From the NCBI GenBank assembly GCA_044868695.1, contig JBIOWP010000029.1, forward strand, positions 1 through 37,058: DNA of 37,058 bases, read 5' to 3'. The DNA is from a bacterium (GTDB lineage: Bacteria > Sysuimicrobiota > Sysuimicrobiia > Sysuimicrobiales > Kaftiobacteriaceae). This document shows positions 15,001-18,000 of this stretch, piece by piece (position 1 is the stretch's first letter; every line of letters begins with the position of its first letter). A program made the position numbers.

Positions 15001-18000
15001 TGCGCGTCCCCTGGGTCACGGCGTCGGCCGCCCTGCACCTCAAGGTTGCCGGAGGCACGATGAGCGCCCTGGCGAGCTACGTGGGCAGTCGGCCCGACGT
15101 GGACCCGGCAGCGTTCACCCGAGTCGTCCTGGGCGGCTACGTCGTCACCGGCTTGCGATTCGCTTCGCTTGCAGGGGACGGGGCGGAATGGCAGGTCGGC
15201 GTGGACAACGTCGCGGATCTTCAGTATGAACCGATTGCGGGGTATCCGGCTCCGGGCAGGACGGCGTTCGTCGCCTACACGAGGAGGTTTTAGCTGTGCG
15301 CACGGGCGCGGCGGTCCTCTATGGTATCGGTGCCGGTCTCGTAATCGCCGCATGGCTGGCGTCCCCGGAGCTGCGGGTGGTCCGGCCCCATCCACCTGCG
15401 CCCACCGCCGAAGAAGAGGCCGGCCCGACCTCCGGCGGGCCGGGGGCAGCGGTCGAGCCTGCTCCGGCCCCGCGGAAACCCGCCGCGACAGGACCGCGGG
15501 CCGGCGCAGACGTCAAGGTTTCCACTCCTCGTGCACCGGATCCGGTGAAGCAGGACGCCGCGCACGCAGTTCCGTCCCCGGGTCAGCTTGCGGCGGAGAA
15601 TCGTTCCACGCCGCGACACAGAGAGCCGCCCGACGGGGGTTCGGGAGCAGTCGAACACGGCGCGGCCGGCGAGCAGGCGACTGCGCCGGGTGGGGAGGCG
15701 CGGTCCGATTCGGACCACACTCCGGTGCTGGCGCCTCCCGTGTTGGTGAGCCGCGGATCGTCGGGATATCCGTCCGAGGGGTATCGCATCGTCCTCGACC
15801 GTAACGCGCTGACCCCGCGGCTCCGGGTCGAAGCCGCCCAGGGTCTGGTCGTCTTGCGGGTCCTCGTACGCCGGGATGGCTCCGTCGCTCAGGCAGAGGT
15901 GATGCGGTCGTCGGGCGTTCCGGCGCTCGACGCGGCCGCCCTGCGCAGCGCGGCCACCTGGAATTTCACGCCAGCTACTCGGGACGGCACGCCGATCGAG
16001 GCCTGGGTGCTGATCCCTGTCCGATTTGTCGTACCGTGAAGGGGAGAAGGAAGAGGGAAGAGGGAAGAAGGGACAGCGGGAGGGCAGGCGGGTGGATGTT
16101 TGGAAGCCTTGGGATACAAGAGACTGGCTATTTGGCAAAGAGCCCATGCACTTCTCAGGGCGGTATTGAAGGCTTCCCAGAAATTTCCGCGGTCGGAAGA
16201 GGCAAGGATAGTCAGAACCCAACTGCTCAGGGCGGCAATGTCTGTCCCAGCAAATATCGTGGAAGGCTATGGGGGACAACGAGGGAAGTCGTTCACGCGA
16301 TATCTAAACCTTTCGAGAGGTTCCGCATGGGAAGCAGACTATTGGATCCTCCTCGCTGAGGAACTTAAGGCGATTGACCGGGCCACCTATGAGGAAGTGC
16401 ACGGGCTGTGCCATGAAGTCATCGCAATGCTGACTTCCGCGATCGAAAAGGCAAGGACGATAGAGTAGTGGACTTTCTCTCTTACTTCTTCCCTTTCCCC
16501 CTTTTCCTTCTTCCCTTTTCCCTCTTCCCTCTTCCCTGTCTCGTTATCATGGCCATCGATCCCGGTCGTGCCAAGAGCGGAGTGGTGGTCGCCGACGCGG
16601 CGGGAGGCGTTCTTACGATCCTGGAGCGCGGCGTGGTCCCCACCGCGGGCCTGGCCCCGCTCCTGCGGGAGTGGGGCAGCCGGCATGCGGTGACGCAGGT
16701 GGTCGTAGGGGACCGGACCGGAGGCGACGCCCTCCGCCGGATCCTTGTGGATGCACTGCCCGGCGTTCCCGTTGAAGCCGTCGGAGAGGCCCACACGACG
16801 TTGCTGGCCAGGCGCCGGTATTTCGCCGACCATCCACCCCGCGGATGGCGGCGTCTGCTCCCGCGCTCAATGCAGCTTCCCCCGGAGCCGTACGACGACT
16901 ACGCCGCGGTGGTGATTCTGGAGCGGTTCCTTGAGGGGAAGAGGCGACCTATATAAAACTTTGTATCTTTTCCGCAATCCCATGCCCCAGGGCAGGATTT
17001 CCCGGAATGGCGGAGTATTGCTCCTTGGACTAGTTGGACTGGCAAGGTATTCAAGTGTCCTGCCGTTCCACAGGGCGGCATTCGCGCGGAGGAAGGGAGG
17101 TGCAACCCCTCGGTCCGCCGGTGCCTGGACGGTAGGCTTCAGTGAGCCCACGGCCACCGTCGCAGCAAAGAGGAAACTCGCACACTCGTTTGTCTGTGCG
17201 CTGGCCGCTGGCTCGAAGACCCAAAAATCCAAGGGGGTAACGAGCAGATGAGGAATCTCGCACTTGCTGTTGCAGCAACCCTCGTGCTCGCGGTTGTCTC
17301 CCCCGTCTTTGCTCAGCCGTTTGCCGACGTCCCGACCGACCACTGGGCGTTTGACGCGATCGCTGAGCTCGCCGCGAAGGGCATCATCGAAGGCTTTCCG
17401 GATGGTACCTTCAAGGGCGATCGGGGAGTCACGCGATACGAGGTGGCCATGATCGTCGCCAGAATCCTGGCTCGCATCGAGGCCATCAAGATTCCCGGAC
17501 CCGCGCCGGCACCTGCGGCTCCCGCGCCGCAAGTCACCCGCGCGGACGTCCAGACCATCCAGCGGCTCGTCAACGAGTTCCGCGCAGAGCTGGCGGCCCT
17601 CGGTGTTCGGGTCACGGCGGTTGAGGAAGAGCTGACCGCTTTGAAGGGGACGAAGGACAACGTCGCCGTTAAGGGCGACGTCCGCCTCCGGTACAACGTC
17701 TTTCCGGGAGGCAGCGTCGGGGATACCGCACCGTCGATCCGCTACCGCAACCGGATGACCTTCACCGGTAAGGCGGGCAGCAACGTGACGGCCGTCGCGC
17801 GGGCATCGTTTGGCGGCGGCGGCGGCGGTCTTCCTGGAGGCACCGGCCCTGCTGGTCAGCGGGCCTTCAGGTTCGACTTCGACCTCCGCAGTCCGGAGTT
17901 CATGCAGACCGTCAACTTCGACTATGCCTATCTCGACCTGGCCGGCGTATTCGGACTGAACTGGCGGCTCGGGCAGCAGGCATACACGCTGTCCGGTGTC

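What a model noticed while it worked through the whole genome (the two positions that open the first line are those of the whole stretch)
16040..16545. Four-helix-bundle ('23S rRNA IVP'/Avd-like) genes are the cargo of heptamer tandem-inverted-repeat elements that pepper [...]
Three of the four '23S_rRNA_IVP' genes lie outside rRNA and are boxed between two arms of 3-4 tandem heptamers in inverted orientation (g00440 GGAAGAG, g02445 GGGCNCC, g02553 GCGRATT). Over 50 empty intergenic hairpins use the same arm units around a 10-70-nt spacer. The gene-bearing copies look like the autonomous form of a mobile hairpin family, each copy going with its own heptamer.
Evidence so far: 53 intergenic period-7 and 16 period-8 tandem inverted repeats found by script, several unit classes; arms on both sides of g00440, g02445, g02553; of 30 PF05635 loci in the family 15 have inverted tandem arms on both sides under a strict test, with at least 8 different units, against 0 of 150 control genes; copy number 0-7 per genome. 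Seven paper searches found no such link.
(Added by a program. Inside this text positions count along the whole contig: contig position 1 is position 1 of the stretch shown here. "Call 12" and the like, gene names such as g00115 and contig names such as C1 are that model's own, and its searches are not shown. The text may have been shortened before it was handed on; [...] marks where a part breaks off. The agent that wrote the report below was given it as the finding of a first reader that could run no searches.)

Follow-up and report, generated by a model that had tools for sequence, protein, structure and literature searches.

The report
Pentamer genes boxed in repeat hairpins
A small bacterial protein of unknown function is usually encoded between two short, mirror-image repeat arms, and gene-less hairpins made of such arms are swapped between relatives at the same gene junctions, which points to an undescribed kind of selfish DNA behind long-unexplained seven-base repeats.

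Summary
Confirmed and wider than stated. The window gene (PF05635/TIGR02436, fold of Xcc0516 and Avd) sits between inverted arms of about four heptamers. So do 95 of 119 homologous loci from several phyla, against 5 of 250 control genes. The genome holds about 230 such arms; short-range inverted pairs occur only at periods 7-9, almost always G-rich arm first.

The copy-paste MITE reading fails. Spacers are unique, partner arms are not copies of each other (facing units differ far more than chance in three genomes), and most arms here have no cognate gene. Instead the same conserved gene junctions carry gene-bearing, empty, deleted or different-unit alleles in relatives; 24 of 35 arm sites differ between two genomes 93% identical. 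Protein similarity tracks unit similarity across sites. A palindromic box shared with comEC, comM, yraN, radC, recA and ssb precedes 15 of 37 armed family genes.

Best reading (0.45): the ring protein binds its cognate arms and drives allelic replacement at junctions during natural transformation. A co-occurring Y1 transposase is the main rival. Binding and movement are not shown. The empty repeats are published; ten searches found no link to this protein beyond one rRNA case.

The parts
16040..16081 (+). left arm, about four purine-rich heptamers (consensus GGGAAGA), starting at the stop codon of the TonB-domain gene
16100..16468 (+). four-helix-bundle gene (PF05635/TIGR02436), 122 aa, TTG start, GC 53%; no competence-type box of its own
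16475..16545 (+). right arm, pyrimidine-rich reverse complement of the left-arm unit; in frame as an N-terminal extension of the downstream ORF
15296..16039 (+). upstream host gene with TonB C-terminal domain (left side of the junction)
   Evidence: PF03544 E 1e-16
16468..16956 (+). downstream host gene, RuvX-like (below Pfam cut-off); its GTG overlaps the stop of the four-helix gene
   Evidence: PF03652 E 5e-4
12136..12210 (+). gene-deleted remnant: short decayed 8-nt arms and the leader hairpin; G004, G005, G019, G020 have an armed four-helix gene here, G021 a partly deleted one, 12 other genomes neither
970..1037 (.). empty hairpin, same unit class as the window gene
6986..7067 (.). empty hairpin (GGGAGTC class) across a gene junction; none of 6 relatives has it
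20500..20600 (.). empty hairpin (window-gene unit class) whose spacer holds a terminator-like stem that G003 has without arms
21177..21202 (+). single pyrimidine-rich arm, in frame inside a coding sequence; G019 has the same arm type and G021 a full hairpin at this position
22875..22982 (.). hairpin (GGGCNCC class) with arms inside the ends of two genes and the stop/start junction as spacer; relatives carry other units here
27208..27281 (.). empty GGGACCN hairpin, folds as 6-bp blocks separated by single mismatches; G019 has an armed four-helix gene at this junction

Best explanation
A selfish junction-homing element without an enzyme of its own. The unit is: left arm (about four 7-9-nt repeats), optional four-helix-bundle gene, right arm. 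SHOWN: it occupies junctions between conserved co-directional genes, often supplies the start of the next gene, and is replaced by other alleles at the same junction much faster than the flanks diverge. INFERRED: the protein forms an Avd-like ring that binds single-stranded arms of its own unit. On DNA entering a competent cell, bound arms fold the insert out, or protect it, so that host recombination (RecA with ComM/YraN) installs that allele over the resident junction using short flanking homology. Gene-less hairpins are deletion products or passengers that use the same protein in trans, so the resident protein sets the dominant unit of a genome. The rRNA intervening sequence is one such element that landed in 23S rRNA. 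New sites are colonised rarely, by an unknown step. My odds: protein is the unit-specific factor about 0.7; spread by allelic replacement about 0.6; both about 0.45.
For: Arms at 95 of 119 loci against 5 of 250 control genes; the arm-less family copies are mostly one inherited clade of 10. Protein-unit coupling across 48 sites. Dominant GGGA unit equals the unit of an own gene in G004, G005, G008, G019 and, as a broken gene, G020; in Xanthomonas a four-unit GGGAATC array overlaps the start of xcc0516 (PMC4692102 supplement file 2 row 27). 24 of 35 arm sites differ between G020 and G021 (6.7% mismatch over 113,784 aligned bases); by my reading, 11 are swaps to another unit and spacer at the same junction, some with the neighbouring start region. 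Third-position mismatch in the last 15 codons next to changed sites 69 of 328 against 118 of 984. Palindromic box upstream of 15 of 37 armed family genes against 21 of 2393 predicted genes, shared with Competence (comEC), ChlI (comM), UPF0102 (yraN), UPF0758 (radC), SSB, RecA and a GspH-type pilin. Fold nearest Xcc0516 (Z 18.9, rmsd 1.3, 113 aligned), BT_0352 and Avd (Z 13.6-14.0). Four copies scored 0.67 against best control 0.00 (mark reached by 20 of 30 solved homodimers and 1 of 23 monomers; runs agree in at least 76% of contacts; pLDDT at least 82), which may only reflect likeness to the solved pentamer. G-rich arm first in 68 matches against 0 everted.
Against: No binding, movement or expression was measured. 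No cognate gene for the dominant GGGA unit in G000, G007, G010, G021 (86-95% complete). The per-gene-end test of import tracts is not significant (P 0.10), N-terminal ends show no excess (23 of 203 against 126 of 1188), and positions within a tract are not independent. Y1 transposases co-occur at least as well: 12 of 12 genomes in the arm-rich genera, 0 of 10 in the two arm-poor genera, and carry the same box. The window gene and 21 other armed family genes lack the box. Homing does not explain how a new unit first appears at a junction. Protein-unit and genome-level correlations are inflated by kinship and base composition; in G013 and G040 the counted arrays are the gene's own arms.
Confidence: 0.45

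Rival explanations
1. A Y1 (HUH, RAYT/TIRYT-like) transposase cuts and joins the hairpins on single-stranded DNA; the four-helix ring is an adaptor or the gene is a passenger.
For: Y1 genes in 12 of 12 genomes of the arm-rich genera, including G006, which lacks a canonical four-helix gene, and in 0 of 10 genomes of the other two genera. Same box upstream. An AACTRC-like motif lies directly outside 54 of 133 GGGA arms, genome frequency 0.6%; its mirror contains GTAG, the REP tag (PMC3733652).
Against: 0 of 4 Y1 genes examined have tandem arrays nearby, and they sit by a different short repeat with 100 matches in this genome. G013 and G018 have arms but no Y1 match (78-80% complete). Unit tracks the four-helix protein. 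The GTAG lies at the 3' foot, not the 5' foot as in REPs (recalled).
Confidence: 0.2
2. Arms are written in place: the ring, with a host polymerase or an unknown partner, adds about four units at breaks on both sides of a junction, G-rich strand towards the centre, and overwrites older hairpins.
For: Fixed polarity; mode of four units (55 of 72 GGGACCN arms); unique spacers; spacers that hold host signals; stacked arms of two units; genome-specific dominant units in close relatives; Avd is a reverse-transcriptase cofactor.
Against: No reverse transcriptase match in 5 arm-rich genomes and no RT motif in 90 loci around these genes. In swaps the spacer usually changes too. Independent writing of two arms predicts chance pairing at wobble positions, not avoidance.
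Confidence: 0.15
3. A host regulatory or structural system at RNA or G-quadruplex level: the ring binds repeat RNA near translation junctions, and arms persist because they tune expression.
For: Single arms near starts are mostly G-rich on the mRNA strand (41 against 15); 33 of 41 hairpins lie between co-directional genes; GGGAATC arrays form quadruplexes in vitro (PMC4692102); a translational role was proposed for TAACTGA repeats (PMC4679880).
Against: Only 17 of 91 gene-flanking units contain GGG. Co-directional junctions are 82% of all junctions here, so that bias is background. 24 of 35 sites turn over between close relatives. Genes are patchy, low in GC and sometimes broken.
Confidence: 0.1
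4. One reading: hairpins are MITE-like units copied to new sites by their own gene-bearing copy.
For: Related proteins with related units occur at unrelated sites, so gene plus arms do reach new sites at times.
Against: No shared spacers among 37 or among 62 from six genomes, bar one G019/G021 pair; 21 different wobble patterns in 22 hairpins; no transposase fold; turnover at occupied junctions.
Confidence: 0.07

Closest known systems
23S rRNA intervening sequence with S23 protein (Coxiella; PMC4990558, passages read)
   Same: Same protein family inside terminal inverted repeats; three to four tandem heptamers at the 5' end; proposed to be selfish.
   Different: Here outside rRNA, at mRNA junctions, with gene-less derivatives and many units; that paper treats the heptamers as local and the ORF as decaying.
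GGGAATC / GGGGAYT repeats of Xanthomonas and Nostoc (PMC4692102; abstract, passages, Discussion and a supplement search)
   Same: Four-unit preference, 70 convergent inverted pairs in Xcc, intergenic between aligned genes; the GGGATYN and GGGACTR classes here are close in sequence.
   Different: Explained as quadruplexes, not linked to a protein; reported as stable between two species (83% kept), whereas most sites turn over here.
TAACTGA heptamer repeats of Beggiatoaceae, Cyanobacteria, Bacteroidetes (PMC4679880; abstract, outline, one passage)
   Same: Two to six heptamers just upstream of start codons; patchy distribution with no mechanism.
   Different: Almost all direct sets; candidate binders are S1, Csp and Csr; the terms helix bundle and S23 do not occur in the text.
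REP/REPIN with RAYT, and TIRtrons with TIRYT (PMC3733652, PMC6006769; passages)
   Same: One gene flanked by its cognate inverted repeats, with a dispersed gene-less family that co-evolves with the protein.
   Different: The gene is an HUH nuclease and each unit is a palindrome; here the gene has no known enzyme fold and each arm is a non-palindromic tandem array.
Avd of diversity-generating retroelements (PDB 4DWL, 8UB7)
   Same: Same fold (Z 13.6-14.0) and ring; nucleic-acid binding of Avd is recalled, not from a call.
   Different: 16% identity; no reverse transcriptase motif near 90 loci.
DNA uptake sequences (DUS/USS) and homing introns or inteins (recalled)
   Same: Motifs that bias their own spread through transformation, in dialects; targeting of conserved sites.
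   Different: DUS are single 9-12-mers read by a surface pilin; homing elements encode a nuclease.

Membership tests
PF05635 / TIGR02436 four-helix-bundle proteins | profile match above cut-off | tested here: met
   99.7 bits against 33.8; 102.4 against 24
PF05635 / TIGR02436 four-helix-bundle proteins | Xcc0516-type fold and ring | tested here: met
   model pLDDT 93.7; Z 18.9, rmsd 1.3; four-copy model 0.67 against 0.00, like a solved complex; five copies not modelled
23S rRNA intervening sequence | located inside a 23S rRNA gene | tested here: not met
   flanked by protein-coding genes
23S rRNA intervening sequence | ORF between inverted arms with tandem heptamers | tested here: met
   PMC4990558
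23S rRNA intervening sequence | excision from RNA by RNase III | not testable with these tools
   needs RNA-end data or an in vitro assay
MITE | near-identical dispersed copies sharing their internal sequence | tested here: not met
   37 unique spacers; 62 across genomes
MITE | target-site duplication | tested here: inconclusive
   none seen, but empty and filled alleles are too diverged at the junction
REP/REPIN-RAYT, TIRtron | boxed gene is a Y1 HUH transposase | tested here: not met
   only PF05635 matches; all-helical model
REP/REPIN-RAYT, TIRtron | dispersed gene-less doublets whose unit co-varies with the protein | tested here: met
Diversity-generating retroelement | reverse transcriptase gene beside the accessory gene | tested here: not met
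   neighbours are TonB-domain and RuvX-like genes; no RT motif in 90 homologous loci
G-quadruplex heptamer repeats (PMC4692102) | four G-tracts per arm | tested here: inconclusive
   true for the GGG-starting classes, not for GTGAATC, GCGAATT or GTTGAAAC; 17 of 91 gene-flanking units contain GGG
Competence regulon | shared upstream box with comEC, comM, yraN, radC, recA, ssb | tested here: inconclusive
   15 of 37 armed family genes have it, the window gene does not; regulator unknown, induction untested

The most novel reading that the evidence does not exclude
The S23/'23S rRNA IVP' ring is the sequence-specific engine of a widespread class of transposase-free selfish DNA. Each variant reads its own four-unit arm, drives armed alleles through natural transformation or writes new arms, and so accounts for heptamer repeat families across bacteria (Xanthomonas GGGAATC, cyanobacterial STRRs, Beggiatoa TAACTGA), the ORF-bearing rRNA intervening sequences, and the ancestry of DGR Avd.
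Probability: 0.4. Interest if true: 0.92.

Novelty: categorically new. Interest (0 to 1): 0.8.

Why it matters
It ties two old puzzles together: why many bacteria carry hundreds of four-copy 7-9-nt repeats, and what the widespread S23/four-helix-bundle protein does. Both become testable with one binding assay and one transformation assay. If the homing reading holds, it is a selfish element that spreads with host recombination alone, reshapes gene ends in housekeeping operons, and offers a set of small rings with different sequence specificities. It would also make the ORF-bearing rRNA intervening sequence a special case and suggest where Avd came from.

Tried and rejected
Reverse-transcriptase partner: this genome has RVT_1 matches, but 0 of 5 arm-rich relatives do. 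GxxExxY/PDDEXK_3 nuclease: 0 of 22 genomes. Other cargo: a scan for inward-facing arms 150-1300 nt apart gave 8 rows, with only four-helix genes as small low-GC cargo, plus one pair inside a host gene and arms of neighbouring hairpins (GC-rich units excluded). SOS reading of the box: no site near either LexA-domain gene, though recA has one. My early idea that every spacer is native host DNA holds at two window sites but not in most G020/G021 swaps. A master arm pair: 21 patterns in 22 hairpins. Adenine-specific (DGR-like) variation: position 4 adenine is 99% fixed while position 7 varies. The mismatch rule was not seen outside this genome with a loose register (27 of 186 against 25.7; gene-bearing 22 of 120 against 21.2), and with a fixed register not in G020 (9 of 42 against 6.2). 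The one exact spacer duplicate is an overlap of two contig ends. Viral contigs gave only 10 loci, 8 scoring 13 or more. Two searches for empty alleles of G020 elements found no ortholog. Sequencing runs: no RNA holder listed; no reads were laid, so strain-level polymorphism is open. The tree is a quick tree with many open forks.
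Full report
OBSERVATION. The stretch 16040-16545 is a 122-codon ORF (16100-16468) between a purine-rich arm and its pyrimidine-rich mirror (42 nt, 86% complementary). 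The protein is PF05635/TIGR02436, with GC 53% against about 70% around it. It lies in an operon behind a cobalamin riboswitch (13200-13415), between a TonB-domain gene and a RuvX-like gene. Three of four PF05635 matches in the genome have arms. Inverted pairs of tandem arrays within 100 nt number 40, 14 and 8 at periods 7, 8, 9 and none at 4-6 or 10-12; direct pairs number 3, 0, 1. A seeded count gives 228 arms, mostly of four units (55 of 72 in the largest class). The G-richer arm comes first in 50 of 58 period-7 left arms, with 1 the other way and 7 ties; across 22 genomes a four-block pattern matches 68 times in that order (overlapping matches included) and never everted.

THE LINK IS GENERAL. 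A strict test finds arms on both sides of 17 of 65 distinct loci from metagenomes and named genomes, against 0 of 122 control ORFs; most negatives have degenerate arms by eye. A sensitive score gives a median of 21 for 119 loci against 8 for mismatched flank pairs, of which 19% reach 11, and 95 of 119 loci against 5 of 250 small genes at 13 or more (18 of 137 hits had flanks too short to score). In five named genomes (Bacteroidota, Planctomycetota, Ignavibacteria, Alphaproteobacteria) 16 of 19 loci reach 13; five of these were already in the first set. The arm-less family copies are mostly one clade of 10, including the fourth gene of this genome (quick tree). Units are 7 nt in 53, 8 in 25, 9 in 12 and 10 in 1 of 91 armed loci. 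Among 94 genomes of the class, 18 have the GGGA-heptamer pattern, 17 have a PF05635 match below 1e-15, and 14 have both; kin are not independent, and in two of them the arrays are the gene's own arms.

UNIT FOLLOWS PROTEIN. With one locus for each of 48 site groups, protein identity correlates with unit similarity (rho 0.27; permutation maximum 0.19). Of pairs at different sites, 44% above 60% identity have near-identical units against 1-3% below 50%. The dominant GGGA unit matches an own gene in G004, G005, G008, G019 and G020 (broken gene), but not in G000, G007, G010 or G021 (listings for some genomes are partial). Here only 28 of 228 arms belong to the three gene units. In Xanthomonas, the published table lists a four-unit array of the genome-wide GGGAATC type overlapping the start of xcc0516, the crystallised member; no downstream partner is listed there.

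NOT A COPY-PASTE HAIRPIN. The 37 spacers share no family. In 22 GGGACCN hairpins positions 1-6 are almost fixed and position 7 is free, and facing position-7 bases pair in 2 of 66 cases against 17.8 for shuffled partners; whole facing units are identical in 2 of 114 against 22.4 in three classes. The hairpin at 27208 folds as 6-bp blocks split by single mismatches. With a fixed register this repeats in G019 (2 of 42 against 12.5) and G021 (1 of 27 against 5.1), is not significant in G007 plus G010 (0 of 15 against 2.9), and fails in G020 (9 of 42 against 6.2). A loose-register test did not see it outside this genome. So arms keep a fixed core yet avoid perfect stems, at least in the GGGAC classes; survival of imperfect stems and a need for a meltable stem both fit.

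HISTORY OF SITES. At the window junction the gene is present in G000, G004, G005 and two metagenome contigs with drifting units, absent with an 11-62-nt gap in 10 genomes, and replaced by another gene in two. The right arm is in frame with the next gene here and, by my reading, in the other four. At 12136-12210 this genome keeps decayed arms and the leader of an element that is intact in four relatives, partly deleted in one and absent in 12. At 27208 this genome has an empty hairpin, G019 an armed gene of another unit, and others further units or nothing. The junction at 22875-22982 carries different units in six relatives. In G020 and G021 (6.7% mismatch over 113,784 bases), 24 of 35 arm sites differ. 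Reading the 23 printed pairs, I count 11 swaps to another unit and spacer, 3 diverged alleles of one unit, 3 unit gains, losses or partial changes, 1 deletion remnant and 5 unclear or other repeats. A gene-bearing junction of G020 holds an unrelated palindrome in G021 and G019. Beside several swaps the next 30-60 bases are also diverged; third-position mismatch is 69 of 328 in the last 15 codons against 118 of 984 at control ends, and high-divergence ends are 4 of 34 against 2 of 133, but the per-end test gives P 0.10 and N-terminal ends show nothing. This suggests short imported tracts without proving them. Names such as pyrB/C/D/F, guaB/A, groES/EL and sdhA/B for flanking genes are my recognition from sequence, not from a call.

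A TRANSFORMATION CONNECTION. A palindrome TRRCYCA-NN-TGRGYYA has 20 exact and 16 one-mismatch sites here. Downstream genes include Competence/comEC, ChlI (comM), UPF0102 (yraN), UPF0758_N (radC), SSB, RecA, a GspH-type pilin, a LAGLIDADG nuclease and both Y1 genes, a ComF-like ORF recognised by eye, and several unrelated metabolic genes. It precedes 15 of 37 armed family genes, 2 of 13 unarmed ones and 21 of 2393 predicted genes, but not the window gene. Reading this set as a competence regulon rests on established gene roles (recalled); the regulator is unknown.

THE PROTEIN. The model (pLDDT 93.7) is nearest Xcc0516, BT_0352 and Avd (sequence match of a paralog to 2GSC E 2.3e-21). Four of the five invariant residues (Q41, E55, G56, E78) lie in the predicted subunit interface, so conservation needs no catalytic role. 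No enzyme fold was found.

MECHANISM. Shown: architecture, polarity, protein-unit coupling, junction reuse, rapid allele turnover, deletion remnants, shared box. Inferred: binding of arms by the ring, action on incoming single-stranded DNA, and a recombination advantage. The main rival is the Y1 transposase, present in 12 of 12 genomes of the arm-rich genera and 0 of 10 others, with an AACTRC-like motif outside 54 of 133 arms; but 0 of 4 Y1 genes examined have tandem arms and they have a different repeat nearby. A reverse-transcriptase route is weakened by 0 of 5 genomes.

WHAT IS KNOWN. The empty repeats are in print: four-unit GGGAATC arrays with 70 convergent pairs, read as quadruplexes (PMC4692102; abstract, passages, Discussion, four-term supplement search), and TAACTGA repeats (PMC4679880; abstract, outline, one passage). 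Tandem heptamers at the 5' arm of one S23-bearing rRNA intervening sequence are described in PMC4990558 (passages). REP, TIRtron and Y1 classes were read as passages in PMC3733652 and PMC6006769. PMC10907252, PMC8700078 and PMC3936711 (passages) add no link. Ten searches found no paper tying the family to dispersed tandem inverted repeats. STRRs, the heptamer excess in bacterial genomes, REPIN dynamics, DUS drive and Avd binding are recalled.

VERDICT. A real, cross-phylum gene-plus-repeat system with no described mechanism. Interest 0.8.

Noticed in passing
G000, 36 sites, e.g. C84:18347, C62:3252 and 3685, C115:11823, C162:9750, C87:4033: Palindrome TRRCYCA-NN-TGRGYYA upstream of recA, yraN, comM, radC, comEC, ssb and a pilin: a likely competence-regulon box of this lineage, regulator unknown. 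Tandem double boxes 24 nt apart at C78, C83 and C149.
   Followed up: partly
G000 C2:12513-12839, C20:15880-16206, C109:11679-12122: Y1 transposase genes and a LAGLIDADG nuclease gene carry the same box, so several selfish genes appear tied to competence; a short CGGTGCCWGGYACC repeat has 100 matches in the genome.
   Followed up: partly
G000 C27:15513-15818 and orthologs (L016-L018, L029, L236, L273, L277, L283, L287): An arm-less, GC-adapted, inherited clade of the four-helix family at one fixed locus: possibly a domesticated copy or an inhibitor.
   Followed up: partly
window 21177-21202; L220 (G018:C28): Single arms lie in frame inside coding sequences, replacing a loop of similar length.
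   Followed up: partly
L136, L139, L328, L329 (G019, G021): A longer TGTCATTGCGAG-type palindrome occupies the same junctions and alternates with the tandem arms between relatives.
   Followed up: no
G000 C32, C47, C86, C100, C44 (contig starts): Several reverse-transcriptase matches in open frames of 245-633 aa near contig ends, probably a multicopy retroelement.
   Followed up: no
G000 C46:6601, C153:4119; L276, L279, L280: The 9-nt GTCTAC class has the opposite strand composition (C-rich arm first) and goes with its own protein clade.
   Followed up: partly
window 13200-13415: Cobalamin riboswitch before the TonB-dependent receptor operon that holds the element; G004 has three 8-nt hairpins just behind the matching leader.
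   Followed up: no
G000 C127:200 and C36:13089: Two contig ends overlap at one hairpin, with four units per arm in one and two in the other: an assembly collapse or a strain variant.
   Followed up: partly
L292 (G097:C2): An armed gene with very long arms, more than 20 heptamers on each side.
   Followed up: no
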